Positions 2,421 to 28,000 of a stretch of 28,000 nt of DNA are shown piece by piece. The stretch is from Blasia pusilla. Its lineage: Eukaryota. A program made the translations under genes and the position numbers. The stretch lies in NCBI GenBank assembly GCA_050084515.1, contig CM114271.1, positions 49,972,001 through 50,000,000 on the forward strand, given 5' to 3'. Each line of letters starts with the position of its first letter. Positions within the stretch are counted from its first letter, which is position 1. The notes beneath the pieces are model-generated. The model worked only from the letters and a program-made list of their open reading frames with translations, ran no database searches and was not told where the DNA came from.

Positions 2421-2441
2421 ATATAAAACTTTCTATTTTCA

Positions 2442-7953: not shown

Positions 7954-8320
7954 ATGGCTTCCCTCGCTCATTGCACCTTCTTCCATGGATGGCCTTCGTT
8001 CTCTGCAACGTTACGGCTAGGGTTGGTTGTTTCGTGCATTTCTGAGTAGACAGCTCCGACTACACACCGGGGGAGGCTGGAGTATTGGGCTCCAAGAATT
8101 GCTGCGTTTGCTGTCAAATGTCGCTCGATATCCTGTTTGCAAAGGTGAGTCCAGTTGTTTGGACTCTTTTTTCTTCAAATGCCTTCTGTCACACATTGCG
8201 GTGATGCACTCTAGAATATGTTCATGAGATGTGTCGTTGGATATTGTAGGTCAGTGCTCAACCTCATTGAAGGTCTTCTTGACGCTACGAAGAAAGGACC
8301 CAATTTTGCGAAGGCGACGG
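7954..8320 (+). pseudogene. Possible spliced gene fragment, product unknown
   Basis: ATG at 7954 (MASLAHC...) with one in-frame TAG at 8047. Donor AG/GTGAGT at 8145 and acceptor TTGTAG at 8249 keep the frame (..SISCLQR-SVLNLIEGLLDATKKGPNFAKAT); next donor at 8321 or 8335. No family recognised. Confidence 0.3.
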
Positions 8321-10919: not shown

Positions 10920-12981
10920 ATGAATCGAGTTGTGTGGGGTATTGCTCTTGGGGAGAACATATATTGGAGATACATAGAGGATGGGGAAAAGTGGATGTGC
11001 ATGCTTTGTAATTTCATCCTAAAGGCCAAAAATAAAACCAAGTGCAATCAGCACTTGATTAAAAACCACCCTGACTTGGACGAGTCATTGCTAGTCCCAC
11101 TAGAAAATCGAGGTAGGCGCGCCAATGACCTAGTGATGGGTCGTAAGAGAGAAGTGACAGATGCCCACAGAGAGAGAGAGAGCTTCTTAGGAAATCCGAG
11201 GATGCTCATAGGAGGGAGGTTAAAATCAAGAGGGAGAAATTGTACAAGTTGCGACAATTCCATTCACAGAACGGTTGAAACCTGTACATGTTCCATCGGA
11301 GAAACCTGTACAGGTTGCGACTCCGTTGTCTATGCAACGGAGTCCTCATATCCCGATAGTAGGGAAGAAGCCATCATTGGTGGCTTTGATGGAGTGTAAT
11401 TTGGTGAATTCCTTGCATATTCGCGATTGGGATGGCCTCCTAGACAGGAAACAATACCGTGAGTGCTTGGTGAGAGTTCACGATTGCCAAAATAGTAACT
11501 CCATGATGGAGCATGTAGTATATGGTTGCTTGGCAGCCATAGATAGAGCAAGTCAACAAGGTTCTAAAGACTTGATAGGGAGGGGTAAGGGTTAATTCAC
11601 ACATCTGGAGATGGTTAAGAAGTTGTGGGGAGTAGTTCAAAAAGGCGATGTTGTGTCTCTACAGGAGTTACTTGCCAAGTTTCTTGTCGAAAGAGAGGCA
11701 CAAGTCAAGCAGAGTGTTGCGTGGATAGCACGCAAGAAACAAAATCTAGTGGGTTGGCTTGAGCGAGATCAAGCCAAGTACTCTGAGTTTATGGCCATGC
11801 AACAATATGAGGAATGGTTGGCCACGAGAGATTCCAAAAAAGCAAAAGATATTTATGAGGAGAGAGTTAGTGCATTTGTTCCAAGTCAAAGGAAACATGA
11901 CAAAGACACATGATGTAAGAAGGGAAAACAAGGTTTGAAAGTGAGAGCAGAGGAGAAGGGTGGACCCTTACATAAGTCTTCGGAATCAAATAGCAGTGAT
12001 TTCCAACCCTTGCCACCTCGACGTTGTCGCTTAGGCGACGACACGGGTAAGGCTGTTAAGAGTAAAGAGGCGGGTAAGGCTTCTAATTGCAAATTACCAC
12101 AGCGTTCAACGGGCCAAAGGAAGGCTGAGACACCAAAATTGAAGGGAAAGAATGTGAGTGCAGCAGCCAAGTCCCCCTATACACGATCAAAAAGTAAGCA
12201 GCAAGACAGTAGGAGTTCCATGCATGTGGATGCCGTTCCATCAGCAAGAGAGATGGGTGTTGATGAAGCTATTCCACCAGGTGGGGGGGCTCCAAGGGTG
12301 GATCTGACTGCACCCCCAAGAGAGAGTCACTTGGTGGAACCCATTCCACCAGTTGGGGAGTCCCTCAATGCGGATGCCACTCCATCTTTGGGACTTCAGC
12401 CTAATGCAGAACTCATTTCACCAGAGGGGGGAGCCGAAAGTGTGTATGCGCAGTGTCAAGGTGATACGCCTGTGGAACCCATTCCACATACTCCATGTGG
12501 TGAGGATGGGGCGGCCATCCATCATGAAGGGGTTAGAGACAATCCACATTTGGTCAAGACAACCGGCTTTGCATTTTGCACCCCTATTCATGAAGACATG
12601 CAGATTCCTTTTGCAAATCGAGTGGCACTGGAGGATCATGAAGATGTTGATGATGACACCCTTATGAAGAAAAAACAATCCTCTAGAAAATTGAGAGCTT
12701 TGAAGAAAAAATTGGGCAAGACGTTGTTGAATGATATCAATGACAACATTAGTAGTGAGGCACCTAAACTTGGCACTCACTCACAAGTGTCCAAGGCCAA
12801 TAACGTGAAGTCCACACGAACAAGTTTGACACCTACTGTCGAGGAGTGCAGGGAATTAGGAAAGTCGAAGTTTGAAGTCCTCCAACAAATGATGAAAACT
12901 CCCCAAACCAGGAAGGCTAAACGGAAGAACAAGTACGGCCAACTCAACCTAGGAGTGGAAAAGAAGAATAAAAAGGTATAA
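10920..12981 (+). pseudogene. Disrupted gene for a BED-type zinc-finger protein with a long low-complexity C-terminal part (probable transposon accessory gene)
   Basis: YWRYIEDGEKWMCMLCNFILKAKNKTKCNQHLIKNH fits the BED finger pattern W..C-x2-C..HL-x3-H. ORFs 11275-11595, 11611-11913 and 11935-12981 follow in one shared frame separated by stops. Lies upstream of, and co-oriented with, a MULE transposase. Confidence 0.6.
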
Positions 12982-13690
12982 ATGTATGTATGAGTATGCA
13001 CTCTCTATGTGATTTTGTGATGATGGCAAGAGTCCTTGTTCTCTACCTTCAATTTTGCTCTCTTATTTTACTTTCATAATAGTTTAGCATGGATAGTAAT
13101 GATATTCCTATCTCTGATTTTTTCTGGTTTTGTCATTACAGATAGCGTAGATGGAGATGTTCCCATATTGGATATGGAAAGCTAGATTCCAGAGTCGTTG
13201 CCCTGTGGTTTCTCAGATATTTCTCTCACGGCAAAAGTATACCCTCGTTAGTTTTTGTCATTAGCGTTGTAGTTTTTGTAGTTCTCGGACCTTACCTGAA
13301 AGTAATTTTGTACAGAGGCTCTCAAAGCATCTACTAGAGGTATACAGTTGGTTCTTCACTTATACTTAAGTGACTTGCCCCATAGTAGTAGAGCTAGAAG
13401 AGGTTTAGACAACTAGGACATGTTGCCACTTGGAATACCACCACCTTGTATAGAAAGTATTTGATTCTGAATTCAAAGTGGTGGGAGTTCACAAATTTCT
13501 ATGATTCTTTTTCTTACACTACGTACGATTTGGGCAGCAAGTTCCTGAGGTTCGAGAGCAATGTAGCACGCAGGTTGGAGGGCAATCCAATTGAGTATAG
13601 TTATTCTATGAAATTCTTGTACCTTCCCATGCTTAGGAGGAAATCATTAGAACTTGGCATAGTATACATAGTAGACATAGTAACAGTTGC

Positions 13691-13848
13691 AAAGCATTCC
13701 ATACATCAGAGAAACCATTCCAGTTCTCAGAGAAGCCATTCCACACAACAAAGAAGCCATTCCATGTGAAGGGTAAGCCATTCCATGGTGAAGGAAAGCC
13801 ATTCCATGTCAATGCAAAGCCATTTTGTATGTCAGTGAAGCCATTCTA
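13691..13848. repeat. Eight-copy array, core AAGCCATTCCA, exact 21-bp period, variable spacers
   Basis: CCATT core starts at 13694 (variant), 13715, 13736, 13757, 13778, 13799, 13820 and 13841. Confidence 0.95.
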
Positions 13849-15157
13849 TTGGTAATGGATAGGGGTAGGATCTTTTTGAAAGCAAGAATGTAGAATGGGA
13901 GCCTAATGTAGACTTCTTCATTCACCTCAAAACCCAATACATGCCTTTTGTTAAACCATGTCCAACCAGATTAGTAGAGGTTTGAATAACACTTTTGACA
14001 TGTGTTCTTTCTGTCTTATTAACATACAGGGAAACATTGATCACAAAATTGGCCTCCTCGAAATGGCCACATCTGATATGCTTGCAAGTGGTAGCTCTTT
14101 AACAAGGAGGATATTATGCATGAACAATATTTTCTCCACGACTCATTAGAGCCAACGAGCTTTCCTGGGATGACGATCATGTAGCATACATACCTTGGGA
14201 AAGATTACATGATTTCATTCTTGGCGAGGGGCATGGCAATGGAAGGAACCCAACAACATTCTGGAAAGGAATGTCAAGATTGGTTAAGGGCTGCTCTAGA
14301 GACATGGATGGAGGGGGTCCATTGTACACAATATACTATTGTGCGTATGGCCCAACTAATCTACGCCAAATGCATCAAGAGATTGTGCATAGATGGACAC
14401 TATCTTCTCCTATCCGTTCACATATTTCAAACTTGGATTATTGAAGAGAGTGGATGACCATTTAGTTAGGAATGGTTAGTGTGTTAATTTCACATCATCT
14501 CCTTTTGTTTTTTTCAGTTCTGCTGTCCCCAAAAGTGGAAGAGGTAGCAGGCCGCGCGGAAAAATTATCAGTAGAGGCAATAGTTGCAAACGTGGGTGTC
14601 GATGTCAATTTACAGTCCTTGAAATCAACACTCCTCCTTACGCTACAAAGATCACCTACAAAAATAGAGCTCACCTGGATAAAGACAACAAGGCATGCCA
14701 TGGAAGGGATGACGAAGCATGCATAAATACACCGAAGATGTTTGCTCCTAGGATTTCAAATGATGTGAAGAATTATGTGAAAGAGAGGCTTTGCTTGGGA
14801 GTTAAGCCCCACTAGATCCAATCCGAGCATTCAAAGATGTTGAAAGAGCGCTCGTTGACGGATCCCAACTTTGAGGAGAGTTTGACCCGAGATGACTTCA
14901 TGCAAATGCATGATATACGAAACATAAAAAAACAATTCAATCATGAGACATTTCTATATGCTAGGAGCAAGAACGAGTCCTTGAGCTTGTTTGTTGAGTA
15001 TTATTTTGAGAAGGTGTTCATTTACGAGCCTTACATGGATGAGACACGTCCATTCATTCTGGGATTCCCAAGCCAATGGCAGCTGAATGCTCTTGTAAAG
15101 TATGGATATGGCAGCGCCTTGAGCATGGATAGCACATTTGGCACAATTCGCAACAGG

Positions 15158-15282
15158 GTACTTGCTCTTACTTATTTTGTTGAAGAGATATTTCATGTGA
15201 AGTAAGTCTTCTTATTAGTTTCATTCATGTTTTGATGATTCCATATAAACATGGTACTAACACTTGTATTGATGTTTTGTAG
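15158..15282 (+). other. Phase-0 GT-AG intron (125 bp) of the host MULE transposase
   Basis: AGG/GTAC donor, CTAAC branch-like site and TTTTGTAG acceptor. Splicing joins MDSTFGTIRNR to FPSYTLVVFDD, matching the MULE core motif. Confidence 0.85.
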
Positions 15283-15306
15283 TTTCCCTCATATACTTTG
15301 GTGGTG

Positions 15307-15315
15307 TTTGATGAT
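15307..15315 (+). repeat. 9-bp target-site duplication, left copy (TTTGATGAT)
   Basis: Identical 9-mer at 27829-27837. Removing the insert plus one copy restores LVVFDD-HHSGIPVAWVLTSS. Confidence 0.95.
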
Positions 15316-15368
15316 GGGGGCTGGTATTCTGGCAGGAGAGAGTAAGAGAGGAGAAGAAGAGAGGAGAG
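15316..15368 (+). repeat. Left degenerate terminal inverted repeat (GA-rich)
   Basis: GGGGGCTGGTA...GGAGAGAGTAAGAGAGGAGAAGAAGAGAGGAGAG versus the reverse complement of the right end, GAGGTGCGGTAAGAGGAGAGGAAGAGAGGAAGAGAGGAGAG. Confidence 0.65.
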
Positions 15369-15568
15369 TCTCTCTTAAAAAAAAAGGGCCAAATCCGCCT
15401 CCTCTCTTCAAAACTTTATGACATATTTGAAATTTTTGTTTGCTTTCAAATCCATGAAATCTTTAGAAGAGAGTAGGTAGTGGTCCACATTTGGCCCTAA
15501 AAAAACCTACTTTTTCCTTGGGGCGAAAAAAAAGTAGACATCATAAGACCACTACAAACATTTTTCCA

Positions 15569-16475
15569 TCATTCTCCATGTGAGCCTAAGTTTCTTAACA
15601 TCTCCTCATCTCGGTCAACAAAAAGCAGTGCCCTTGGTATTTTTTTTGGAGGACCACCCGGATGCCAACCCTAAGCATCTACTCCAAGGCATCTACTGCC
15701 TGAAATTTCTACCTCATCTACTTCTGAACCTGCCCTAACTAAAGCCTCTCGAGCAACATTGATGGCATAGGCTCGACTGTCTCTTGGACATGCTTGAAGG
15801 TGAGATCTACCTCTATATTCTTCCCATGCTTGCTTCTTCTCAATCTGGTTCGAGCCCCGCCTCGTTCACACCTCCACTTAGCTCCACCTCCACAAATCTT
15901 CCAGAAATCACTCCTTGGATCCTCTCAACTCCATAGATCTCTCCCTTTGATTCTCAAGCTTTATGGCCTTCAAATGAGGTCCTCTAGGCTTCCATGAGGA
16001 ATCTTCTAGCCCACAAGAGTCCAAGCATTTGAGCTCAGCCTCCATTGACCTCTTCTTAACCCCTTATTCTTCATTTCTTGGCCCTAACAATCAGATCCAC
16101 CCCTTGGTTCAAAACCTCCTCTACAACAAAGACAATCAAGCACTCTATCTCCTTCATTGGATACCCTCGAGACTCCTAGTGCCTACACCATCTCCCTTGT
16201 CTCCTCTAGGCTTGAGGTCAATGGAGTGACTTGGCTGCATTATCACCTTGTACAATCTTCTTGACTTGTTCTTGGACAGATCTGGCTCTTTGGCCTTTCT
16301 CTTGCACCACCTCCACAAGTCCAAAAACATATTCAGAAAACTTTTACAAACACCATTATGGGTTCAAAAATCTCGCCCTTATTACCTCCGAAGGAACTCG
16401 AAATGTACATTGAACCTAGTCTATGATTTCTTCAGCCTCATCATCTACAAATTTACTCCTAACTCTCCTCGTGAT
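15569..16475 (-). pseudogene. Decayed coding-like segment in the left arm of the MULE, product unknown
   Basis: The minus strand is purine-rich and translates in pieces to RRVRSKFVDDEAEEI and QIEKKQAWEEYRGRSHLQACPRDSRAYAINVAREAL...PPKKIPRALLFVDRDEEML, with several stops. Confidence 0.4.
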
Positions 16476-16553
16476 GCATCAAAGGAATGTCCGGGATTCA
16501 AGTGGTCGCCCGCCGGTTGTAGACGGGGATCGAAAATGTTGGCGAATTCGAGA

Positions 16554-16593
16554 GCCTTGGCCCCCCCCTAGGTACCTAGGGGGGGGCCAAGGC
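16554..16593. repeat. Perfect 40-bp palindrome
   Basis: GCCTTGG-C8-TAGGTACCTA-G8-CCAAGGC is its own reverse complement with no spacer. Confidence 0.97.
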
Positions 16594-16628
16594 CCGCCTG
16601 ACTGCCTGATCCGAAAGGGTCCGATCAG

Positions 16629-16775
16629 GCAACCTGTCGGAATCAGACAGGTTGCCTGGAGGTGGTAAAAAGGGTCCAGTGGTCAAAAAGCGAAAAGTTG
16701 CAAGGAGGAGAAATCCGACGGGTTGCAGTGGTCATAAAGTGAAAATTGCAAGCAGGAGAAATCCGACGGGTTGCA
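16629..16775. repeat. 27-bp palindrome cluster 1 (3' of cargo gene)
   Basis: GCAACCTGTCGGAATCAGACAGGTTGC plus two half-degenerate copies ending TCCGACGGGTTGC. Confidence 0.85.
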
Positions 16776-17029
16776 AAGTAGAAGACCGTGGAGTACATAG
16801 ACGATCACATTCGAAAAGACAAAATGATCACCAAACATTTACAAGCAACACCTTTGATCGAAAAAATCTTCTGCTTTATATCATCCGAAAAAAGCTCAAA
16901 TCAGACATTTGATCTATTCTATGAAATCTTTTGCCAAATTATCAAAAACTCCCTACTCCAAACGCCAGTCAATAAGCCGGTCATTGAGTTCTTTGAACTC
17001 ACTCGTCATCGTCGAGAGCTCTTGCAAAA

Positions 17030-17486
17030 TCACTTTCGGCCTTGCCTCCTGATTTTGGGAATCATTGGAAGTGACGATGGAGTCACTACCAAGGGTGGCT
17101 CGAACCGAGCTCGGCTTCGTGGAGAGTTGTACGCCCCAACGAGCCTTTCAGATTCTCGCCTTTGCCTCCTTGCAAAGGTCAAACGATTCTGCCTTCCTCG
17201 AGGCGCGAGAATGTTCCGCCACTCGCCAGCGCCCCGATACTCGCCCCCGAAAGGCCCACTGTCGAACACCAAGTCACCCGGCCTTGAGCAGAGCTCGATG
17301 AGCGCTTGCATCGTGGTCGGGCGACTTTTCCTTCCTCCCGAAGCGGGCATGTCTTACATGTAAATTCCCGGGGAATCGTACAAACTATCTAAGTGCACCC
17401 ATCGAGCATGGATCCACAGGATCCGGATCTTGAACACTGGAAATGGTGCTCGGGCGAACAAAACAAGACACGAGGGAGTGGTCCAT
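17030..17486 (-). other. Last exon: amino-MTase motif X / SAM-binding motif I region
   Basis: ORF 17030-17350 gives TTMQALIELCSRPGDLVFD. Adjacent frames give EKS before it and GASI, RNILA[L]EE, SFDLCKEA after it. This parallels the EKP..L..LI...S.PGD.VLDPF.GSG.T..AA...GR..IG.E consensus of N6_N4 methyltransferases. Confidence 0.72.
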
Positions 17487-17990
17487 CTCAGAATCAAGAC
17501 GAAACAATGTCGAAACTAAAGAAGTCGTCTTGAGAAGATTTTCAATAATCGACTTTGGATCAACGTGTCGGAGTCGGACGGGTTGTTTTGTCTCGGACCC
17601 ACCCGCCGGGTTCCGACGGGTTACGATTGCTTTTGGGTTTCCAAGTTGATTTTGGTTTCGGATGCAACCCGTCGGAAGGCGACGGGTTGTCGCTCAGACC
17701 ACCCATGCTCGCCCGAGAGCAACCCGCCGATAGCAACCCGCCGCTATTAGATGGGTTGCATCCAAAACAAAAAATCGCAACCCGCCGTTCGACGGGTTTC
17801 CGTTTTCCTCAGATGTGGGAAAGATGCAACCCGCCGAAACCGACGGGTTGCTCTCACCGAGCATGGGTCGCTCTAAGCCAAACAACCCGCCGCCTTCCGA
17901 CGGGTTGCTCACGGAAAAAAAACCTGATCGACTCTCATTCTACACATCATTATAAGATAATTGAAATTATTGTACAGAATATAGCCTTAC
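17487..17990 (-). repeat. Predicted intron of cargo gene containing palindrome cluster 2 (~7 copies, 17560-17910)
   Basis: Minus-strand GTAAGG donor at 17990 and candidate acceptor at 17487. Contains copies such as GCAACCCGTCGGAAGGCGACGGGTTG and GCAACCCGCCGAAACCGACGGGTTGC. Confidence 0.75.
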
Positions 17991-20029
17991 CCGAATCTGA
18001 CTCGTTGCGGATCGGAGTGGGTACTCGTTTTTGATGATCCATGATTGTGCCGTCCTCCACTTTAGCGACCTCTTGACGCACTGGAGGTTGAAGAGCTCGT
18101 CCTCGCTCCTTCCGGGCCAACACCAAGAAGCAGCCCCGCCACTCGAGATAGGCGTCGCAAAGGAGAACAAAAGTGCAACTGGTCATAAGTGAGCGGCAGA
18201 TTCCACTCAGGTACCTCGTCCGCCGGATTTTCGCCCCAAAGTCGCAACCCCGAGGGCAAATTGGCGATCAAGAGATCCACCGCAACCTCTTCCACCACTC
18301 CATTCACCGTCCAGGCAACGTGCCCGTTTCGTTGGAGCTTCCTTCCAGCGTTGTCAATTTTTTGATGGCAGTTGTCGACACTTGAGAACTGAAGCTGTTC
18401 AACTCATCCAGTAAAGAGGTGACCTGAAGGAGGACGCTTGTCCGGGTCGTTGTTTGTCTGTGTCTTCCCAAGGATGATGGGCTGTATTCTCCTTGGGACA
18501 ACCCAGGCACCTCTCGCTTCGCTTCTCTAGTCCGGGACGGCTTGTCGGGTTTCGATGACCTCGGATTCTGGTGGCGTTTTCTTCGCCGAGGACCTGGTCC
18601 GACCCTCTTTTCCCGCTCGTCCGGACGATTCCGCCTCTGGCCTCTCATCTTCAGGCTCTCTTTGGGAAGTCTCGGCCTCTGAATTTTTCCTCCCCTCGCT
18701 TGCCTTTGAGACCGCTGTGGATTTGTCTTTGGCTGTCCGGACCTTGAAGCCAACTCACTGTCTCGTACCGCTCTTCGCATCTCCTCCGAAGAAGTCTTCA
18801 GCCGACAAAATTGGGGATGTCGTCTTGTCCTAAGGCCATTGCATCATGAAGCACTCTTAAGTCTTATCGGTGATGTCTTCAGTGGTCGTTGAAGTCGAGC
18901 CAAATGGGGCAATTCTCCACCTCCAAATCCGACATGTGCTGACCCATCTCCACGTCGTACATGGAGAATGTCTCTCCATCCGGCGGCGAAGCCCACAATT
19001 TCAAGGCAACCGGCAATTTTCCCCACCTACCCGCGTTCTTACACTGGACGAGGTACTTGAATACCATCCGTTGGGCAGCTTTTAGTCGAACATTATCGGC
19101 CGTCTGCTCCTGTAGATCTCGCTTCTTCTTCGCTTGATCCCGTTTGTTACCCTCTACTTTTCGTCAAGCTCTCGCCGAGGGAGGACGCAAACCTTGAACA
19201 TGGTCTTGAATCCAGGGTTCTTGGTTGGCTTGTCCCGGATGTCGTCGAGCCAAACCTCGTAATCTCCAGAACTTTCAAGGTTTGCTTCCGGCGGAATGGG
19301 CTCTAATCTTCTAAGCTCCGCTTGCAGACCGTCCAGCACGGACTTCCCGATTACCCGCAACGCGCCCCGAATGACCATTCGCGTAGCTAATGCGAGATCA
19401 CCGGATCGGACACACCTGGAGGATGGTGTGTCGCCCTCTTCCGGGCCTCTCGAGCCCTCGAGATCGATTTTCATCATCGTATCCTCTGAACTCGCTAATC
19501 CCGGATAACGCAAAACGATGCATGCGATCCAGCGACACTTTCTCCCCAATCCGACCATGCGGATCTTCATCCTCTTCGCCGACGCTTGATAATCGCCTTG
19601 AGCTCCTTGTAGAACTCCGGACCAAGTTGGGGTTAAGAATCTTGATGTATCGCTGCATCTTGCTCGCCGTGTATTTCGTTGCAGCAGAGACAAAGCAGCT
19701 TGATGAATTTGGCGCGCTCAGACGCAGATACCTTCTCCCTCCACTCGGCTCGGTCACGGCGCTTTTCTTCATGGCCTGTATCTTCGACCAAACAAAGGAT
19801 GGTAACGGCTGCATCTTGAGAAATAAACTTGTTTGCCCAAGTTTTCTTCTTAATTTGAGCACCCTTTGCAAGCATCTGATTGACGAGGCACGCCCAAGAA
19901 CCCTTGTACTCTCCCGGGTGCGTCGTAAGCACCTTCCTCACCCGATCGTAGTCCTGGATCCAATGGTGGATGATATTCCTCCGATACAATCGCACATCCA
20001 AACTCAACCCGCCAGGAAATTACATGGGT

Positions 20030-20904
20030 TCCTCGCAACCCGCCGGACTCGACGGGTCGTCCACTTCAGGGTCGGATTCTAGCAACAAGCTAAATGATGC
20101 AACCCGTCGGAGTCCGACGGGTTGCATTCAGATTTGCTAATGCCAGGTAAGCAACTCGTCGGAGTCCGACGGGTTGCTGGACTGCACGCTTTTTCAGATG
20201 TTTTTTTAAGATTGCAACTCGTCGGACTCCGACGAGTTGCAATCTTGAACATAGATTTAACTAGTTGTTGGCCCAAAGCAAACCCCGAGTCCGACGGGTT
20301 GCTGATAGGTCGCTTTGTGAGGTTGTTTTTTTAAGAATGCAACTCTTCGGACTCGACAAGTTGCTCGAGTGACAAAGAGTTTAGAAGGTTTTTGCCCCAA
20401 AGCAACCCGTCGGACTCCGACGGGTTGCTTGCCTCGAAGCTATTTTTCCCTAATCAACCCGTCGTAGTCCGACGGGTTGATTTCGGCCAAAAATAGTTTC
20501 GAGGCAAGCAACCTGTCGGACTCCAACGGGTTGCTTTGGGGCAAAAACCTTCTAAACCGCGTCCCTCGAGCAACTCGTCGGAGTCCGACGAAAGTTGCAT
20601 TCTTAAAAACAACCTCACAAGGCGGCTTGTCGAGCAACCCGTCGGACTCCGACGGTTTGCTTTGGGCCAAAAACTAGTTAAATCTATGTTCCATCAAACA
20701 AGTCGTCGGAGTCCGACGAGTGTCAATCTTAAAAACATTCGAAAATCGTAGTTTAAAACCCGTCGAGTCCCGAAGTTGCTTCCCAAGATAGCAAGAGGCA
20801 TTGAGTCCGACGAAGCTTTTATTCGCCTAAAAAACCTAACCCATTCATCAATAGCAACTCGCCGAGTCCTATCGAGGAACCGCGAAAGTGTTAAAGATAC
20901 TTAC
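20030..20904 (-). repeat. Predicted intron of cargo gene containing palindrome cluster 3 (~13 copies) arranged as a long foldback
   Basis: Minus-strand GTAAGT donor at 20904; perfect copies at 20099-20125 and 20402-20428; spacers mirror around 20467. Acceptor not pinned (about 19980-20030). Confidence 0.85.
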
Positions 20905-21429
20905 TTGTTCATGGCATGCATTGCCATCTCCACCGCCGCCATGTGATGAGGGTATGGGTGAAGGACCACCGTTTCATGAAATGTGCCTCCAATGAGTTGG
21001 GGAGAAGGCCCATCAAATTGGTCCACGCCATGAACTGTGATTTCCATCCCGGATGAAGAAATCCGATTCCTCATCCATTGAATTCAGCCCTCAACTTGCA
21101 TCATTTGAGTCCTGGTTGGATCCTCCGAAATTTGTCGAGATTTTCCAAGTCCTCCTGAACTTAACGGTGTAGAGCTTTGGGTTCCATGCTGCATTAAAAA
21201 TGAAACATAGAAGGGTTTTGAAAACTCCCAAACCCCAAGAAGGATTTGTTTTATTTTTCCGCCGCCCGATTGTTTTAGCTTTTTGCGATGTCCTCGCCCT
21301 TCAGTTCAGGACGTATTCCATTTTTCTTAATCGGCATAGTGGAATCCTCGGGAAGCGTTGTTGGCCCTCCATGAGTGCCATCCGCTTTACCACCGGATTG
21401 CCCAAAATACGCGGGACAAGAGGAATAAG
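20905..21429 (-). other. Exon encoding ParB/sulfiredoxin-like domain
   Basis: Across frameshifts: IRP..KGEDIAK, KLKQS, KPFYVS, FFIRDGNH[R]FMAW and ETVVLHP..HMAAVEMAMHAMN. A hydrophobic strand + DG.HR..A + helix ending in Asn is the ParB/Srx core pattern. Confidence 0.65.
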
Positions 21430-22411
21430 CTACATGAAATCCCAATGAATTGCAATTCACATAATTAAAAACGGAGGAACCTCTCTTACCCGCTCAAAAA
21501 TGGAGTCGGTTTCTTGACCACTAACTTGTCCGGAGATGGCGGCAAATCGACCGGGAACTCGTCGATCCGATAGAGGTCGATGTCCTCTCGGGCTTGGAGT
21601 CGAATGACCGCTCTCCGACTTCTTCCGCCATGTCCACCATCTCCCGCGTTCCAGGATGGCGGTCCTCATGACTCGCGTCATCGATTTGCGGTGTTGTTTC
21701 CACTATGTTGATTGTGTCCCGGACTTCGTGGGGACATTTCCCGCATCTCAACACTTGAAAAGTTGACGGCCTGGGCTATCGCCAATGGCTATCTTCATTC
21801 CTTTTCCCGCCGCTTTAGCCAATTCCGCCCTCCTCACCGACGCGATAGGAGGGACGCTTCTTTTCTCTCTTTTCATCGGGCGATCCTTTTCTTCAAGGCT
21901 GGCGACGCCTCAGCCTCTTCGTCTCGTTTATCTAGCGCCGCTTGAACACGTCTCGCCGGAGGGATTTCGGAAAAATGACAGAAAAGCACTTGGTTGTGCA
22001 TCTCCGCTTCCCTTTCCCGCTCCTCGATTTCCTGCCGCCTAATTTCATTCGCGAACGAGGTGGCAGAGAATCGAGAAGTCCTAATGGACTTGGGAATGAA
22101 GCTCCCGGACTTGTTGGCTTGTGTTTTTTCCTTGTCATTTTTTCTGAAGAAATCCCTCCGCCTATGTCCACGAAATTTAATCCCTTGATCAGTCGCTTGT
22201 TGATGTCAAGATGGGAGCTGGCTCGCTTGGTGGTTAGCTCGATCGCCCCGATATCGCCTGGCCGAACTGTCTTGTCTCGCCTCCTATCGACTCGCGATGT
22301 GTCAACATAGTGAAATGCCCCTTCAGATCGATCACGCTGTCATGAGGAGAGTGAGGAGTGGAGGAATGAAGATTGGAAATGAGAAACCGGAAATGAGCGA
22401 CTTCTCGACCC

Positions 22412-22419
22412 TATTTATA
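22412..22419 (-). promoter_or_regulatory. TATA box of cargo gene
   Basis: TATAAATA on the minus strand, followed by a pyrimidine-rich leader and ATG at 22343. Confidence 0.7.
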
Positions 22420-22514
22420 CTTTTCTAGTCGTTGGGCTGACCCGATTTGGGTCCCGTCGTCCTTTCGACGGCAAGAAACGTGCCGAATGTTACGGAAGAG
22501 AGGACGTTTTTTAA

Positions 22515-23245
22515 AAATCGCAACCCGCCGGAGTCCGACAGTTCCTCTTGCCCGCCATCCTGGGAACGCCGCCACGGAGGAGCAACCCGCCGAGCCCGAC
22601 GGGTTGAGCGAATCCGTTGTCTTCGGAAAAGAACGAGAGGTAAAACAACCCGTTGGAGACCGACATGTTGCGTGCCTCGCCATCTCGCGAACGCCGCCAC
22701 GCAGCATGCGAGCAACCCGCCGAGACCGAGGGGTTAAGCTCCTCCGCCGTCTTCGAAAACAAGTTGAGGTACTGCGCAAGCCGATGAGACCGACATTTGC
22801 GCCTCCCCCGTGTTTGGGACGGAACGGACGTATTTTGGGCAATCCGTCGAGTGGTGGGTTGCACGCTTCCCTCATCATGGGTTAGGAACGATGGCTGAAC
22901 ACCGTATCAAGTCGCCGGAGTCGGCTTGCTCGATTGATGCACCACGGCGCGACGCCTTGCGCAACCCGTTGGACGGCGACGGGTTGCACGCCTCGCCGTC
23001 TTTGGGCTCAAAGGCAAGGCACCCGCAGAACTCATCGGGAACAGACGGTTTGCACGCCTCCGGCATCTTCGAGCAAGAAGGAGCGGTATCCCAACAAGTT
23101 GTTGGAGAGCGACGGGTTGCTCGCTTCGACAATGTTTAGCAGAAGCGTGCAACCCATCCGATGCCGACGGGTTGCAGGCTTCGGTAAGCTCGGGTAATTT
23201 CTGAGTTACCACGACTCCGATGGGTTCCAAGTGATGCGCAACCCT
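22515..23245. repeat. Palindrome cluster 4 (~11 degenerate copies) in the bidirectional promoter
   Basis: Examples: GCAACCCGCCGAGCCCGACGGGTTG, GCAACCCGTTGGACGGCGACGGGTTGC, GCAACCCATCCGATGCCGACGGGTTGC. All lie between the two outward-facing TATA boxes. Confidence 0.85.
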
Positions 23246-23381
23246 CTGCTTCCCAAATCCGGTAACATATTGCAACACAATTGAATGTGTTACAGAATTG
23301 GATCCATTGTGTCAGACAATCTCCCCCACCGAATTCATCTTGTCAGTAAAAATCTGTCAGGAGTATGTGTTTCCTATTCAC

Positions 23382-23388
23382 TATAAAT
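23382..23388 (+). promoter_or_regulatory. TATA box of transposase gene
   Basis: TATAAAT followed by a (ATTCTC)3 leader and ATG at 23440. Confidence 0.7.
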
Positions 23389-23439
23389 TAAATATTCTCA
23401 TTCTCATTCTCAGTCTCCTCCCGTAGGAATCTTCTTGGA

Positions 23440-26400
23440 ATGGATAATTATGTTAAGCTCACTTGTGGCAGTCATCTGGCGGCCCTTCCTCAATCAGAAA
23501 TCATTCGACCCCAAGCTTGTGAGTCTTTCGTAGTAGTGGATGAAAATTTTCTGTCTGTTCGATTTCTTCTTCAAATTGGAACCATCTTTGTATCTAAAGA
23601 TGTTAGGGTGGAAGGTATGGAAGACAAAATAGGTGAGACGGTCCAGCCAGTGACCTCAGACCGTAAAGTATGGAATCTCCTACCTGTCGCAAATGGTCAA
23701 TACAGAGTTTACGGCCCCCTCGACTCGTCTGTTTCCCAAGTAGACGGTCTAGAATTTCCTAGTGCTCCGAGCTCTACGTTTGCAACTCCAAGCTCTGCAG
23801 ATCCGGCTTCGACACCAACTTCGCACACTCGTAACAATGTTGTTCTTCCTGAAGAGATTTCGGATGTTATCAACCTCAGCGGATCTGTCGGACACCAATC
23901 GGGCCCTGTGTCCGCCTACTCGTTCCTCTTTCGAGTATCGGCAATAGTTTGCTTTCGTCTCGCCTTGAAAATGTTCAAGCATATTCTTGTCGATTTAGCC
24001 GCCGCCACGCACGATGGTAATCGCATTTTTGAGTTGCCTCCACTTGCCGCTCCTGCTCAAAAGAAGGATGGAGGACGCTGAAGGGTATGGGAGAAAGTCC
24101 GATTGTCATCGATGGTGCAGCTTCAACGGACAAGTGCTTCCATCCCGAGATGGTCCTTGGATTGTCCCGCCGCCAATGCGTGGGAGCCTTGGAGTGTAGA
24201 AGTCCAGCATGCCCGTATCTAGAGCGCAACGGGCGAGTCAATACGTCGCAATTCCCCCAAGAATGCAGAAACTCCATACGAGGTGGGTGCCACAATACCG
24301 CCGGGAGGCCATCGATGTCCTCATTGTCGCATCGCCTCTGCGTTGGAGCGTGTCCGCATACATATTTTTCATTGTCCATGACTTGGGCTCCACGCCGAGT
24401 ATACAAGGTCGGGCAGTTCATGTTGGCTCCACACTCATCTTGTGACCGATGCAATTCAAAGACACATCAAGGAGGATTTGGCGAAGAAAGTAGCCGAGGT
24501 CTTGAAAACTCCGGGTTCAAAGCCCGGGTGATCAAGCTCACAACGGCATCACAAATTTTTGAACAATTGCTTGGAATCCTCGGATGGGCGAGATCACGGC
24601 GGTTGAGGAGAAACAACTGGGAAAATCTCGCATTTCTCGCTGATCCCGAATGCTTCCGAATTTGTCGCCGATACGAAGTTCGGATGGAAAGACGGCCGAA
24701 ATGGATGCCATCGCCAGAATCAAGGCCAACTCCAGATTTCCATTCATTCAGAGATGGCAGTTCATGGGCCAAGGAGGCGAGGGATCCAGGGCCTATGTCT
24801 TCAAAATGTCAACCACAGGTCCGTCGAGTGGCCTCGATCTTATAGATCGAATGAGGGAAGGGGAAGATCTTTACGGAGCCGGGTCAGCTTTGATATTTGC
24901 TACAGAGTGCTTGAACGGATGGTTGACGATGGGTGCTCACGTTTATGACCATGTGGAGAAGGGACTCAAAACTATATTTGTGTGTGAAGTAAAGGCAGAA
25001 GATGTTGGCAGTTTGAAGATGTGTTGGTTACTCTTATTGGAGGTGGTGAAGGAAAACAAAAGGCCACCTCCGAAAATTTATGGGTTCATGGCGGACAATG
25101 CACAACCTGGGTGGATTGCTATCCGGGAAGTGTTCTAGGGTGGAGAGGTTCAACCTGAGAGGGAAAGGTCGGATGCTTTCCATTGGCAATGATCAGTGAC
25201 CCGGTACACCAAATCTTGCATCAAGGAGAATAAGAGGACAGAGCATGTCACTCTACTCCAACGCTGCAAGGACAAAGAAACCTTGAAGCAGGCCATGGAC
25301 CGCCAGAAGAACTTCATGGGTGGTGGAGGAAGCATGCGATTGAGGGAAGTACAAAGAGTTGTGCTCTTGGTTGAGTTGGTGGATGTACGTATGAGACAAT
25401 GGGGAAACTTCATGCGGCAGGTGAGTTCACTATTTTGTCTTGTCAAGCTCACGCTGAGAATTGTTTGTAAAGTTGTAGCTCAGGGTGAGAAGCGTGGGAA
25501 TTATATGGATTTAAAACCCAAGAAACCAAGCAAGCTGTCGGATGCGACGGGTTGCCCGAGTGTGCAATCCGACGGAAACCGACGGGTTGCCCGAGTGTGC
25601 AACCCGACGGAAACCGACGGGTTGCATCCAGATGTTTGGTGTCATCCCGGGTGTGCAACCATTCGGGACCCGACGGGTCACAGAGTCGTTCATGGGATGC
25701 CTCGGCCTTGCAACCCGTCAGGTTCCGACGGGTTGCAGTAGGTGGGTTTAAGGTTACAACACGGCGGGACCCGACGGGTCGCAGAGTCGTTCATGGGATG
25801 CCTCGGGCCTGCAACTCATCTGGTTCCGACAGGTCGCTTATTTCTTTGAGTCCTGGGTTATTTTCGTTCCCTTCTAACATTTCCGTCGTTGCAGGGATTG
25901 AACGTTCATGAAAATGCCCTCTCCCCCACCACAAGTGGAGCAGAAAGTGTTCATTCCTCTTGGAGGTCGTCACAAGCATACCAACGAATTTCACTTGTGG
26001 AGGCATGCCAACAAGACCAGGCAAGAGCAATGCTACGATCTGCAAAGACATCCCATATCTTTCTCACAAAAGGCATAACAAAAGGAAAAGGGCCGTCGAT
26101 CTACGAGCTCTATGTCGTATGGCTTTGTGAGATCTCGGTGATGAAAAATTGTATGTCGAAGCCTTCAACGGTGCGTAGTGGAACTCCACTCGAGCAAGAC
26201 GTACACATTGGTGGGGATATTCGTGGGCGGGTTTCAAGACGCCCCATACAGATGGTGGTAGAGCATCCAAACGAGACTCGTGGAGACAAGATAAGTATCT
26301 TGACTTCAGCAGTGAAGAGGCAAAGCATCGAGGAACGAATCCGGTGATTGATTTGGATGAGGAAATTACACCGCCTAGGTATTCGGGGACCCCGGACCCG

Positions 26401-27408
26401 TCCCAAATCCGTAATGGAGTTACTTCTCCAAAATCAATGAATGTTTTATTTCAAAAGCCCTCCGTTGCTGGAAGTTCGCAACATCCTGTCACTCGGATGG
26501 TTCAACAATATGGGATTCCGGTAATGGAGGTGGATTGCAACCTAAAACGGTGGCATATATCTCGGAGCAACCCAAGAGGTGGACCCACCTGCAGGGCAGG
26601 ATCTGATGGCATTAGGAGAGCATGCGGCACTTTCCTAAATAAGAATCAGATAAGGATGGGCGACCACTCACCGCTCGGGTTTTGGGGACTCAAAACCTTC
26701 GATCGTTTCACGAGGACTGGGGATCAATTGAAGTACTTCTTCTGTCCAAATGAATCTTGCGCTTTCCGGAAGTCTTATCCGGCTGCCATTGGAGCTCCCG
26801 GGAATACCCCCACAATTTGGCCCATCGCCGCAGGCACGAACTGCACTCAAGACGAAGTGGACAATCTTACAAGTGCCGGTTTGGACTCGAGACGGGGAAG
26901 TTCGAGCATGTTCGTGACATGAGACCTTCGATTTCGTATTCAACCCAAGATTGATGTCAACATGTACCCGGAGAAGGTGGATGATCTCAATCCATTATTT
27001 CTGTTTGAGTCTAGAAATGGGGTGAAGAGAAACAGAATGTGTAGGCCAACGGTGGAGAGAGCAAAACGAATTGAAGCAGCTCGGGAGGCAAAAATGGAGA
27101 TCATCGCCACGAAAGATATCCAGAGTGGCAATGGAATAGGAAGGATGTATTGGGTCAGGAACAACACTGTAAATTCAAGTGTCATAGGGGTGTATGTGGT
27201 GCACATCTGTTGCTTTCCCACATGTTCATGTGATGACTTTGTCCAAAGAGAGACAAGTGGCAAAAGGTATTTCCCTTGTAAGCACATGTACTATGTGTTC
27301 TTTGGTAGTTTTAAGAGAGTCGGAGGTAGGAGTAGGAATCCACCAACCACCTCATCCCTCAAAGAAGTTCAAGTATTTAAAACAAACCACTTTGAGGATG
27401 CAAAATGA
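23440..27408 (+). pseudogene. MULE-like DDE transposase with N-terminal Cys cluster and C-terminal SWIM zinc finger (stops and frameshifts as assembled)
   Basis: CVGALECRSPACPYL; VFKMS..GP.SGLDL; VSFDICYRV (D1); GFMADNAQ (D2); RERSDAFHW (CxxH-equivalent). After intron 25421-25894 comes PTTSGAESVHSSW (E), a further Cys-rich block, and YVVHICCFPTCSCDDF...PCKHMYYV (SWIM CxC..CxH). In-frame stops at 25136 and 25190. Confidence 0.88.
25421..25894 (+). repeat. GT-AG intron of transposase containing palindrome cluster 5 (~7 copies) and a ~70-bp duplication
   Basis: CAG/GTGAGT donor, CTAAC branch site and TTGCAG acceptor; splicing joins WGNFMRQ to GLNVHE. Near-identical blocks at ~25664-25735 and ~25765-25836. 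Confidence 0.85.
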
Positions 27409-27754
27409 GGTTTTAGATTGTACTTTTTTTTTTTTTTTTTTTTCTCAACCTTCACTTGTGAGCTTGAACTCTATTCAGCCGGGGCAAATGATAGATTTTT
27501 CCAGACCTTGGATGGAAAAAGTGATTGGTTCCACACTTATGATTCCACTGATTTTTCAGTTTTGTAAATTTTGTGCAATTTGCAACTCGTCAGACTCACA
27601 GGGGTTGCCAAAATATGGAAGAGGAAAAAAAAATTGTGGGATTGTTTAATAAATGAACAAAAAAGTGCAAAAAAATTCACACAAAAAGTTTCCTCTCTTC
27701 AACCCAACGGAAACTCTCTTCAAAAAAAAGTATCTATTTCGGTTGAAGGTAGTT

Positions 27755-27828
27755 TCCTCTCTCCTCTCTCCTCTCTTCCTCTCTCCTCTCTCCTCTCTTC
27801 CTCTCTTCCTCTCCTCTTACCGCACCTC
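27755..27828 (-). repeat. Right degenerate terminal inverted repeat (CT-rich, CTCTCTC/CTCTCTTC units)
   Basis: Pyrimidine tract ending CTCCTCTTACCGCACCTC directly before the TSD; complementary in character to 15316-15368. Confidence 0.65.
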
Positions 27829-27837
27829 TTTGATGAT
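27829..27837 (+). repeat. 9-bp target-site duplication, right copy (TTTGATGAT)
   Basis: Identical to 15307-15315. Confidence 0.95.
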
Positions 27838-28000
27838 CACCACTCAGGGATACCCGTGGCCTGGGTTCTCACATCTAGTGCAAAGGAAGTGTATTTGGGA
27901 AAGTGGTGAAAGCTATCTTGGATAAATGTAGAGTCATCCAACCAAATTGGGAACCAAATGCGATCATTGTTGACGACACTTTGGCAAAGCACAATGCATT
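27838..28000 (+). pseudogene. Host MULE transposase, continuation after the insertion (runs off the window)
   Basis: HHSGIPVAWVLTSSAKEVYLGKW, then after a 1-nt frameshift KAILDKCRVIQPNWEPNAIIVDDTLAKHNA (second catalytic Asp region). Confidence 0.88.

What the first reader, a model, noticed from the sequence alone, without database searches (positions are those of the whole stretch)
15316..27828. Mutator-like transposon carrying a ParB-methyltransferase-like gene plus arrays of a candidate palindromic target site
Seen: one TSD-bounded 12.5-kb element holds a DDE/SWIM transposase, a divergent spliced cargo gene with ParB-like and amino-MTase-like motifs, and ~40 CpG-rich palindromes limited to its non-coding DNA. 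Established: Arabidopsis VANDAL MULEs encode VANC proteins that bind short motifs arrayed in their own non-coding regions and cause sequence-specific hypomethylation. Bacterial ParB proteins load at palindromic parS sites and spread along DNA. Bacterial-derived 4mC methyltransferases exist in bdelloid rotifers and Marchantia. Inference: the cargo protein could load on the palindromes and mark (4mC/6mA) or shield the element, giving a self-encoded epigenetic or anti-silencing system built from bacterial-type parts. I cannot tell from the sequence whether this family is already described.
Basis: partly seen in the sequence, partly recalled or inferred. Interest (0 to 1): 0.92.

Follow-up and report, generated by a model that had tools for sequence, protein, structure and literature searches.

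The report
Mutator-like transposon with palindrome arrays
A decayed 12.5-kb Mutator-like jumping gene carries dozens of copies of one 27-base palindrome in its promoter and introns, probably docking sites for one of its own proteins, but the proposed ParB-methyltransferase cargo is at best a faint methyltransferase relic.

Summary
The element is real. A 9-bp target-site duplication (TTTGATGAT) flanks 15316-27828, and removing the element restores the interrupted host reading frame. The palindromes are also real: 37 copies of GCAACCCGTCGG-N3-CCGACGGGTTGC, all inside the element and none in 15.5 kb of flanks, in six clusters. Those I could place lie in the shared promoter region, introns or 3' DNA.

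The plus-strand gene looks like a Mutator-type transposase, on lead-level evidence only. It is broken by at least three in-frame stops.

The minus-strand cargo has no detectable relatives. Tests for ParB were at chance level. A methyltransferase reading rests on one 21-residue motif X-I match (hhalign P about 2e-5, first of 588 reading-frame pieces). A second, weaker relic and a weak motif IV-like site in the right order add a little. No catalytic motif is intact.

Best reading: a dead copy of a Mutator-like family whose non-coding DNA carries dense binding-site arrays for an element-encoded protein. This resembles VANDAL/VANC in Arabidopsis and the accessory-gene cassettes with inverted-repeat arrays published for red-algal transposons. 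I rate it a new variant of a known kind, of moderate interest. No genome, RNA or second copy could be examined.

The parts
15307..15315 (.). left copy of the 9-bp target-site duplication TTTGATGAT
   Evidence: read; identical to 27829-27837
27829..27837 (.). right copy of the target-site duplication
   Evidence: excision with one copy restores the host reading frame
15316..27828 (.). the whole 12,513-bp Mutator-like element
   Evidence: TSD; no similarity to the flanks by blastn or tblastx at E 1e-3
15316..15386 (.). left terminal region, GA-rich, imperfect inverted repeat with the right end
   Evidence: local alignment of the first 120 nt with the reverse complement of the last 120 nt scores 56; 300 shuffles gave a maximum of 43. 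The match is offset and low-complexity
27754..27828 (.). right terminal region, CT-rich 7/22-nt tandem repeat plus terminus
23440..27408 (+). transposase pseudogene (Mutator-like). It starts at an ATG at 23440. In-frame stops lie at 25136-25138, 25190-25192 and 26920-26922, and there are further frame changes
   Evidence: ORF table; atlas lead to MULE/ZSWIM1-3 RNaseH-like clusters for 24644-25138; no Pfam MULE hit
25421..25894 (+). transposase intron (GTGAGT...TTGCAG, phase 0, frame-preserving) that holds palindrome cluster E
   Evidence: sequence and ORF frames
27214..27297 (+). SWIM-type CxC...CxH zinc-finger stretch at the transposase C-terminus
   Evidence: Pfam PF04434, E 0.083, 12.9 bits against a cut-off of 19.6
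18879..22339 (-). accessory ORF set 1, an orphan. It consists of several reading-frame pieces with a strong donor (GTAAGT) at 20904, and ends at a stop at 18879-18881
   Evidence: No Pfam, PHROG, NCBIfam or PDB hit. 0 hits for 18879-19163 among 1.84 billion representatives
17030..18843 (-). accessory ORF set 2: a basic low-complexity stretch, then methyltransferase-like motifs split by a putative intron (donor GTAAGG at 17990) that holds cluster B
18245..18280 (-). motif IV-like site (V-D-L-L-I-A-N-L-P-S-G-L)
   Evidence: best PSSM hit of the whole window at 14.2 bits, but the shuffle best has median 12.2 and 90th percentile 14.5. hhalign aligns it to motif IV at P 0.19
17243..17311 (-). motif X-I-like site of a SAM-dependent (PF01555-type) methyltransferase
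   Evidence: hhalign Prob 77.7%, P 1.9e-5; rank 1 of 588 pieces at P 2.8e-5; own HMM rank 1 of 1114 pieces at E 0.22; PHROG DNA methyltransferase at E 0.6
16117..16173 (-). second, more decayed motif I-like relic in the CpG-poor left end
   Evidence: hhalign P 2.1e-4, rank 2 of 588
15396..16368 (-). further weak methyltransferase-like fragments, each at chance level alone (16368-16342, 15557-15396, 15432-15397)
   Evidence: hhalign P 0.006-0.06; 5 of the 6 best pieces of the window lie on the minus strand of 15292-17353
16629..16774 (.). palindrome cluster A (3 sites, two of them right half-sites only), downstream of the cargo stop
17560..17908 (.). palindrome cluster B (6 sites), in the putative cargo intron
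20035..20724 (.). palindrome cluster C (12 sites, about 52-64 bp apart). The cluster is itself a large inverted repeat
22520..23175 (.). palindrome cluster D (8 sites) between the divergent cargo and transposase genes
25530..25837 (.). palindrome cluster E (7 sites) inside the transposase intron
27582..27608 (.). single degenerate palindrome F in the right subterminal region

Best explanation
This is a dead copy of a Mutator-superfamily DNA transposon that landed in another open reading frame and made a 9-bp duplication.

The family carries a transposase on the plus strand. On the minus strand, transcribed divergently, it carries one or two accessory genes with no detectable relatives. Their only recognisable feature is the motif X-I region of a SAM-dependent, PF01555-type methyltransferase, with weaker relics of other motifs.

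The non-coding parts of the element hold 37 copies of a 27-bp palindrome. These parts are the shared promoter region, at least one verified intron, two probable introns and the 3' regions. Each palindrome is two inverted 12-bp half-sites, and the copies are arrayed every 35-65 bp.

I infer that these arrays are high-density binding sites for a sequence-specific DNA-binding protein made by the family itself. That protein would be either an accessory protein or the N-terminal DNA-binding part of the transposase. Binding would set the element's own transcription or chromatin state in cis and in trans on sister copies.

Shown: the anatomy, the restriction of the palindromes to the element, and the decay of this copy. 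Inferred: binding, the identity of the binder, and any effect on methylation.
For: - TSD and restored host frame.
- 37 of 37 palindromes are inside the element and 0 in the flanks. 15 sites have 3 or fewer mismatches, against 0 expected.
- All clusters that could be placed lie outside reading frames. One lies in a frame-preserving intron. Two follow strong splice donors. One lies between the divergent genes.
- The right arm is better kept than the left: 31 against 48 differences in 26 of the 37 copies. Lone right half-sites occur in cluster A. Both fit a 12-bp protein half-site.
- Each cluster has its own variant of the motif, as expected for tandem-repeat turnover.
- The same layout is experimentally tied to binding by VANC21 in VANDAL21: introns, intergenic and terminal non-coding DNA, tandem repeats (PMC5735166).
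- Inverted-repeat arrays next to an accessory gene are reported for red-algal transposons.
- Mutator identity: 9-bp TSD, atlas lead, weak SWIM.
- Methyltransferase relic.
- CpG observed/expected is 1.0-1.3 in the interior, 0.36 at the ends and 0.59 in the flank.
Against: - No binding data exist.
- No second copy of the family could be examined, so conservation of the arrays across copies is unknown.
- No DNA-binding domain was recognised in any reading-frame piece.
- Pfam does not recognise the transposase as MULE.
- The methyltransferase signal is a single short motif that generic class I SAM methyltransferases also share. Motif IV is not significant. The motif I-II block and the frame-shifted continuation scored nothing.
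- Strong hairpins (-12 to -18 kcal/mol) would equally fit an RNA- or DNA-structure role.
Confidence: 0.5

Rival explanations
1. The cargo is a ParB-methyltransferase fusion of bacterial type. It loads on the palindromes as ParB loads on parS, then marks (4mC/6mA) or shields the element.
For: - The motif X-I match to PF01555-type methyltransferases is first of 588 pieces.
- A motif IV-like site lies upstream on the same strand. Both PSSM top hits of the window fall in the cargo in the right order.
- ParB-methyltransferase fusions are common in phages: 4 of the 8 ParB hits fetched were fusions.
- The element interior is not CpG-depleted.
- A similar idea is published for red-algal PAG3.
Against: - No ParB signal. 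Pfam found nothing at E up to 10. An own ParB_N HMM gave a best E of 4.2, outside the element. hhalign gave a minimum P of 0.015 over 189 pieces, which is chance level.
- Motif IV reads N-L-P-S instead of (D/N/S)-P-P-(Y/F/W). FxGxG is not intact.
- The 25-nt palindrome core pattern is absent from 185,579 prokaryote genomes.
- No relative was found in 5.8 billion clusters or in 1.84 billion representatives for the pieces tried.
Confidence: 0.1
2. The palindromes act through nucleic-acid structure, not a dedicated protein. They would form hairpins in the pre-mRNA introns or cruciforms in DNA. These could feed small-RNA silencing, stall replication, or simply spread by slippage with no function.
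For: - Each unit folds into a 10-14-bp stem at -11.8 to -18.2 kcal/mol, with z down to -9.
- Cluster C is a larger inverted repeat.
- The arrays are tandem repeats.
- 38 of 79 differences from the consensus are C>T or G>A, as expected for methylated, silenced DNA.
Against: - One arm is better conserved than the other, and lone half-sites are kept. A hairpin model does not predict either.
- Cluster E carries an A-A mismatch in the stem of most units yet keeps the half-site.
- The same motif recurs in six separate places, including the promoter, not only in transcribed DNA.
Confidence: 0.2
3. The minus-strand 'cargo' is not a working accessory gene of the family. It would be captured and decayed host or foreign gene fragments (Pack-MULE style), with the methyltransferase-like motifs as leftovers of such a capture.
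For: - There are two or more separate motif I-like relics and out-of-order fragments in 15292-17353.
- Frames change many times.
- No relatives were found.
- The codon-usage score is barely above zero.
Against: - Strong splice donors (GTAAGT, GTAAGG) sit at the ends of reading-frame pieces and border the palindrome arrays.
- The arrangement divergent from the transposase around a shared array-bearing promoter looks organised.
- The transposase of this copy is equally decayed, so decay alone says nothing about the family.
Confidence: 0.2

Closest known systems
VANDAL21 (Hiun) Mutator-like elements of Arabidopsis with the anti-silencing protein VANC21
   Same: Both are Mutator-like elements with extra genes besides the transposase. 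In both, one short motif is arrayed at high density as tandem repeats in introns, in the region upstream of the transposase and in terminal non-coding DNA (PMC5735166, passages; PMC10398659, abstract).
   Different: - The motif here is a 27-bp CpG-rich palindrome of two inverted half-sites. VANC21's is a 9-bp AT-rich motif in one orientation.
- No Pfam family of any kind, so none that would mark a VANC-type protein, was hit in the cargo.
- Hypomethylation is unknown here.
Accessory-gene cassette (PAG1-3) of red-algal Plavaka, Mutator and Zisupton transposons
   Same: These are DNA transposons carrying a PF01555 DNA methylase gene (PAG2) and a gene with a weak ParB-like N-terminus (PAG3). Tandem arrays of inverted repeats lie next to PAG3, and the authors propose them as its binding sites (bioRxiv 10.1101/2025.02.11.637652, section 8 and methods passages).
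   Different: - No SET, 2OG-oxygenase or ParB signal was found here.
- No sequence comparison with PAG proteins was possible.
- Here the arrays lie in several introns and the promoter.
- The source organism is unknown to me.
- The supplements that show their element maps were closed.
En/Spm (CACTA) with TnpA
   Same: An element-encoded protein binds a 12-bp motif that occurs many times in direct and inverted orientation in the element's own non-coding DNA and controls its promoter and methylation state (recalled, not from a call). A 2026 preprint argues that such regulators derive from transposases and that a Mutator transposase itself activates cognate copies (10.64898/2026.08.24.746577, abstract only).
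   Different: This is a different superfamily. The TnpA sites are subterminal, whereas here the arrays are internal (introns, promoter).
Bacterial and phage ParB-methyltransferase fusions (ParB_N PF02195 + N6_N4_Mtase PF01555)
   Same: The cargo's best similarity in the window is to the motif X-I region of these beta-class enzymes.
   Different: There is no ParB_N signal. Motif IV and FxGxG are not intact, and Pfam's cut-off is not reached. The gene appears to have introns. The 25-nt palindrome core pattern is absent from prokaryote genomes.

Membership tests
Mutator superfamily (MULE) DNA transposon | target-site duplication of about 9-11 bp | tested here: met
   Perfect 9-bp TTTGATGAT on both sides; excision restores the host frame. 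The size range is recalled.
Mutator superfamily (MULE) DNA transposon | terminal inverted repeats | tested here: inconclusive
   The ends share a GA-rich inverted similarity (score 56; shuffle maximum 43), but it is offset and low-complexity. The outermost 11 nt match at 8 positions by eye.
Mutator superfamily (MULE) DNA transposon | DDE transposase with a MULE-type RNase H-like domain | tested here: inconclusive
   Pfam PF10551 was not hit at E up to 1. The atlas feature search places 24644-25138 with MULE/ZSWIM1-3 RNaseH-like clusters at 0.91-0.92, and all ten best family-bearing hits agree; this is a lead only. No relatives share words with it (longer proteins only).
Mutator superfamily (MULE) DNA transposon | C-terminal SWIM zinc finger (common, not universal) | tested here: inconclusive
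   PF04434 at E 0.083, 12.9 bits against a cut-off of 19.6. A CxC...CxH pattern is visible in the translation.
N6_N4_Mtase (PF01555, beta-class amino-methyltransferase) | profile match above Pfam's gathering score | tested here: not met
   No hit at E up to 10 on any cargo piece.
N6_N4_Mtase (PF01555, beta-class amino-methyltransferase) | motif X-I region (helix, then PGD-V-LD-PF-GSG) | tested here: met
   Met at motif level only. hhalign against 11 phage and E. coli enzymes gave P 1.9e-5 over 21 columns at 48% identity, rank 1 of 588 pieces. The G-S-G part is not intact. Generic class I SAM methyltransferases share this motif.
N6_N4_Mtase (PF01555, beta-class amino-methyltransferase) | catalytic motif IV (D/N/S)-P-P-(Y/F/W) upstream of motif I | tested here: not met
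   The candidate reads N-L-P-S. It is the best PSSM hit of the window at 14.2 bits, but within the shuffle range. hhalign gives P 0.19. Its order relative to motif I is correct.
ParB N-terminal domain (PF02195) | profile match to ParB_N / GxxR-type box | tested here: not met
   Pfam found nothing. An own HMM from 10 ParB_N sequences gave a best E of 4.2, outside the element. hhalign gave a minimum P of 0.015 over 189 pieces. Decay of this copy limits the power of these tests.
VANDAL/VANC anti-silencing system | a VANC-type protein | tested here: not met
   No Pfam family was hit in any cargo piece. The Pfam name of the VANC domain is recalled only and was not checked.
VANDAL/VANC anti-silencing system | dense arrays of the target motif in the element's own non-coding DNA | tested here: met
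   Six clusters with 37 sites, none in the flanks; compare.
VANDAL/VANC anti-silencing system | sequence-specific loss of DNA methylation | not testable with these tools
   Only an indirect hint: CpG observed/expected is 1.0-1.3 inside against 0.36-0.59 at the ends and in the flank.
Red-algal PAG cassette | PAG2 = PF01555 + SET; PAG3 = ParB-like + 2OG oxygenase | tested here: not met
   No SET, 2OG or ParB hit. Direct comparison with PAG sequences was not done, because none could be fetched.

The most novel reading that the evidence does not exclude
A eukaryotic Mutator-like family encodes its own SAM-dependent, bacterial-type DNA methyltransferase (or an inactivated DNA-binding derivative of one). 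It also carries arrays of that protein's CpG-rich palindromic target in its promoter and introns. Together these would form a self-addressed epigenetic module that keeps the element interior free of the CpG decay seen at its ends and in neighbouring DNA. Such a module would have arisen independently of VANC in plants and of the red-algal PAG cassette.
Probability: 0.12. Interest if true: 0.85.

Novelty: new variant of a known kind. Interest (0 to 1): 0.5.

Why it matters
Transposons that carry both a regulator and arrays of its target in their own non-coding DNA are one of the few known ways a mobile element controls its own chromatin. So far this is shown experimentally only for VANDAL/VANC and Spm/TnpA, and it is proposed for red-algal cassettes. 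A further family with a long, symmetric, CpG-rich site and a possible methyltransferase-derived partner would do two things:
- It would show that this design evolves repeatedly.
- It would offer an unusually specific 27-bp site with which to test how such systems read and change DNA methylation.

As it stands, this window offers a dead copy. The anatomy is solid and the mechanism is inference.

Tried and rejected
Genome, reads and collection scans
- No genome is held for the window.
- The look-up of sequencing runs listed no RNA holder. The best DNA holder has 0.31 of the words. Some air-metagenome runs and runs of other coded organisms hold small shares. None of these was laid, so they are no evidence.
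So splicing, expression and copy variation could not be seen.
- The 25-nt palindrome core pattern (arms without their outer bases) had 0 exact matches in JGI metagenome contigs and 0 in prokaryote genomes.
- A relaxed pattern found 35 metagenome loci of GC 0.50-0.72 with single or scattered sites. They show no other similarity to the element, so they are chance matches.

Family and homology searches
- Pfam, PHROGs and NCBIfam found nothing significant on about 40 reading-frame pieces of both strands.
- PDB sequence search on 8 cargo pieces found nothing.
- The search for homologous proteins, longer proteins only, found nothing for 18062-18403(-) and 24644-25138(+). Proteins of near length were not searched.
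- The full HMMER search of 1.84 billion representatives with 18879-19163(-) gave 0 hits.
- The atlas search on 18062-18403(-) gave nothing above 0.88.

Structure prediction
- Single-sequence AlphaFold of two cargo pieces gave pLDDT 41.3 and 41.7. These are unusable, so no fold search was run.

Methyltransferase leads that did not hold
- By eye, a frame-shifted continuation of motif I (G-x-S-G...F-x-x-L-E-E) looked convincing. My HMM scored it at -3.6 bits and the motif I-II PSSM did not find it. I rejected it.
- The tblastn top hit of YhdJ-like queries at 22261-22112(-) has an 11-residue gap over FxGxG and no profile support.

Gene model and other checks
- An automatic splice-chaining script overfitted by using palindrome translations as exons. 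I discarded it.
- The codon-usage score separates the strands only weakly.
- Rfam found no family in the window.
- Earlier findings of the scan held nothing.
- Paper searches for the palindrome strings returned only chance primer matches.
- The interrupted host frame looked transposase-like by eye. Pfam gave only a weak zf-BED upstream (E 0.0012), so I do not name it.
Full report
**What is there**

The window is eukaryotic DNA for which no genome is held. If 15316-27837 is removed, the two flanks join into one continuous open reading frame. The element shows no similarity to the flanks by blastn or tblastx at E 1e-3. So 15316-27828 is a bona fide insertion of 12,513 bp with a 9-bp target-site duplication.

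Its ends are only loosely inverted repeats. A GA-rich inverted similarity scores 56, against a maximum of 43 in 300 shuffles, but it is offset and low-complexity.

**The palindromes**

The consensus is GCAACCCGTCGG-N3-CCGACGGGTTGC.
- With up to three mismatches the window holds 15 matches, where 100 dinucleotide shuffles gave none.
- At a looser threshold (at least 17 of 24 arm positions, spacer 1-5) there are 37 sites. All 37 are inside the element and none is in the 15.5 kb of flanks. First-order Markov shuffles of the element gave a mean of 0.22 and at most 4.
- A half-site scan at up to 2 mismatches gave 90 hits, 85 of them within the element.

The sites form six clusters:

| Cluster | Coordinates | Sites |
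|---|---|---|
| A | 16629-16774 | 3 |
| B | 17560-17908 | 6 |
| C | 20035-20724 | 12 |
| D | 22520-23175 | 8 |
| E | 25530-25837 | 7 |
| F | 27582 | 1 |

Spacing within clusters is about 35-65 bp, and parts of the clusters are tandem repeats. Single units fold as 10-14-bp stems at -11.8 to -18.2 kcal/mol.

The right arm is better conserved than the left: 31 against 48 differences in the 26 of 37 copies with a 3-nt spacer and two recognisable arms. Cluster A contains two lone right half-sites. This favours a 12-bp half-site read by a protein over a pure hairpin.

**Are the palindromes in non-coding DNA?**

Cluster E lies in a 474-nt intron (25421-25894, GTGAGT...TTGCAG). The intron is phase 0 and joins two plus-strand reading frames in frame. 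Clusters B and C begin just downstream of strong minus-strand donors, GTAAGG at 17990 and GTAAGT at 20904, which end reading-frame pieces. Cluster D lies between the start of the plus-strand gene (ATG at 23440) and the minus-strand frames that begin near 22340.

**The plus-strand gene**

Pfam does not recognise a MULE domain. It gives only a sub-threshold SWIM finger at the C-terminus (E 0.083). The protein-atlas feature search places 24644-25138 with MULE / ZSWIM1-3 RNaseH-like clusters at 0.91-0.92, and all ten best family-bearing hits agree. This is a lead, not a test. By eye the piece and the exon after the intron carry the usual Mutator transposase landmarks; that recognition is recalled, not computed. 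With the 9-bp duplication, a Mutator-superfamily assignment is the best available.

This copy is dead. At least three in-frame stops (25136, 25190, 26920) and several frame changes break the gene.

**The minus-strand cargo**

Reading-frame pieces run from about 22340 down to 17030. There is a stop at 18879 and a possible second start near 18790, followed by a long basic low-complexity stretch. Nothing significant was found by any of these:
- Pfam, PHROGs and NCBIfam;
- the PDB sequence search on 8 pieces;
- the word-based protein search, longer proteins only;
- a full HMMER pass over 1.84 billion representatives with 18879-19163;
- the atlas.

Two single-sequence structure predictions were unusable, with pLDDT about 41.

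**Direct test of the methyltransferase reading**

I assembled 11 diverse PF01555 enzymes, E. coli YhdJ and ten phage enzymes, and later added four ParB-methyltransferase fusions.
- tblastn placed the motif X-I region of 3 of the 11 on 17323-17243(-), best E 0.023. A sequence identical to YhdJ hit 17386-17237(-) at E 0.20.
- An HMM run without filters ranked 17353-17033(-) first of 1114 six-frame pieces, but at only E 0.22. With 15 sequences it tied with a low-complexity piece.
- hhalign gave probability 77.7% and P 1.9e-5 over 21 columns.
- To calibrate this I ran hhalign against all 588 pieces of 30 residues or more. The 259 pieces of the first batch, all plus-strand, had a minimum P of 0.0047, as a uniform null predicts. 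The cargo piece was first at 2.8e-5, about 0.016 after correction.
- Second, at 2.1e-4, was another motif I-like stretch at 16173-16117(-). Five of the six best pieces lie on the minus strand of 15292-17353.
- Position-specific matrices for motif IV and motif X-I both had their best hit of the whole window in the cargo, on the same strand and in beta-class order (18280 and 17338). Each score lies within the range of shuffled windows. hhalign rates the motif IV match at P 0.19.
- Motif IV reads N-L-P-S and the G-x-G part of motif I is not intact. The motif I-II block and my eye-made frame-shifted continuation scored nothing.

My reading is that a relic of a SAM-dependent methyltransferase is probably present. 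The beta-class amino-methyltransferase assignment is tentative, because generic class I enzymes share motif I. This copy could not be active.

**Direct test of the ParB reading**

I built a ParB_N model from ten sequences: two from E. coli and eight from phages, four of these fused to methyltransferases.
- Its best hit in the window had E 4.2 and lay outside the element.
- hhalign over all 189 pieces overlapping 15316-23400 gave a minimum P of 0.015, which is chance.
- Pfam found nothing.

This run also serves as a control that hhalign P-values are not inflated in this region. The decay of the copy limits the power of the test, so ParB is unsupported rather than excluded.

**Is the palindrome known elsewhere?**

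The 25-nt core pattern (arms without their outer bases) has no exact match in 241 million metagenome records or in 185,579 prokaryote genomes. A relaxed pattern found 35 GC-rich metagenome loci with isolated sites and no other similarity. Whether the palindrome occurs elsewhere in the source genome could not be tested.

**What is known**

In Arabidopsis, VANC21 binds a 9-bp motif that is arrayed as fast-evolving tandem repeats in introns, intergenic and terminal non-coding regions of VANDAL21, and causes local loss of methylation (PMC5735166, passages; PMC10398659, abstract).

A 2025 preprint on the red alga Bostrychia describes accessory genes shared by Plavaka, Mutator and Zisupton elements. 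PAG2 has a PF01555 methylase and a SET domain. PAG3 has a weak ParB-like N-terminus (HHpred E 0.29) and a 2OG oxygenase. Tandem arrays of inverted repeats lie next to PAG3 and are proposed as its binding sites (10.1101/2025.02.11.637652: section 8 read whole, methods passages). Its supplements were closed and may hold maps that bear on how similar those Mutator elements are.

A 2026 preprint argues that Mutator transposases themselves act as sequence-specific activators of cognate copies (10.64898/2026.08.24.746577, abstract only). Marchantia's 4mC enzymes are host genes, not described as transposon cargo in the passages I read (10.1101/2021.02.12.428880). The review PMC6431247 was seen in passages only.

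My searches found no description of this palindrome or family. Three full-text searches are a narrow basis for saying it is not in print.

**Verdict**

The best-supported explanation is a Mutator-like family with self-addressed binding-site arrays in its promoter and introns, working like VANDAL/VANC, Spm/TnpA or the proposed red-algal PAG3 system. The binder may be an accessory protein or the transposase.

The ParB half of the proposed cargo is unsupported. The methyltransferase half is a statistically detectable but fragmentary relic. The uneven CpG depletion, with the interior spared and the ends and flank depleted, fits some protection of the interior from methylation-driven decay, but it has other explanations.

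I rate this a new variant of a known kind, interest 0.5. The decisive work is computational on the full genome, plus a bench step that I have referred because the organism is hidden from me.

Noticed in passing
window 15316-27828 against 1-15315: CpG observed/expected is 0.94 for the element and 0.59 for the left flank. Within the element the two ends are strongly depleted (0.36 at 15316-16600 and at 27420-27828). The interior is not (1.0-1.3 at 17000-23250), and the transposase half is intermediate (0.74-0.82).
   Followed up: partly
window 16553-16590: A perfect 38-bp GC-rich palindrome, unrelated to the 27-mer family, lies between cluster A and the CpG-poor left end. It folds at -25 kcal/mol with z -7.8.
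   Followed up: partly
window 15292-16431, minus strand: The CpG-poor left end holds a second motif I-like stretch and several weaker fragments that align to other parts of PF01555 enzymes, partly out of order. This looks like remains of one or two further, older methyltransferase-like gene pieces.
   Followed up: partly
window 20149-20735: Palindrome cluster C is itself a nested large inverted repeat. The arms are 20203-20284 / 20654-20735 (82 nt, 88%) and 20379-20447 / 20489-20557 (69 nt, 94%).
   Followed up: no
clusters B, D and E: Each cluster has its own variant of the left arm: C instead of T at arm position 9 in B and D, and A at that position in E. This gives a mismatch in the stem while the right arm stays constant. 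Among 26 of the 37 copies, 38 of 79 differences from the consensus are C>T or G>A. The 11 copies with a spacer other than 3 nt or one arm nearly absent were left out.
   Followed up: partly
window 10884-15315 and 27838-28000: The element sits in an open reading frame that continues across the insertion site once the element is removed. That frame has its own 80-nt GT-AG intron just upstream (about 15206-15285) and a frame change just downstream. A weak zf-BED match (E 0.0012) lies at 10884-11399. It looks like another decayed mobile-element gene, but no family was confirmed.
   Followed up: partly
window 13637-13852, plus strand: A repetitive K-P-F-rich reading frame gives spurious weak matches to the methyltransferase HMM (E 0.21). 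This is a warning about low-complexity hits in such scans.
   Followed up: no
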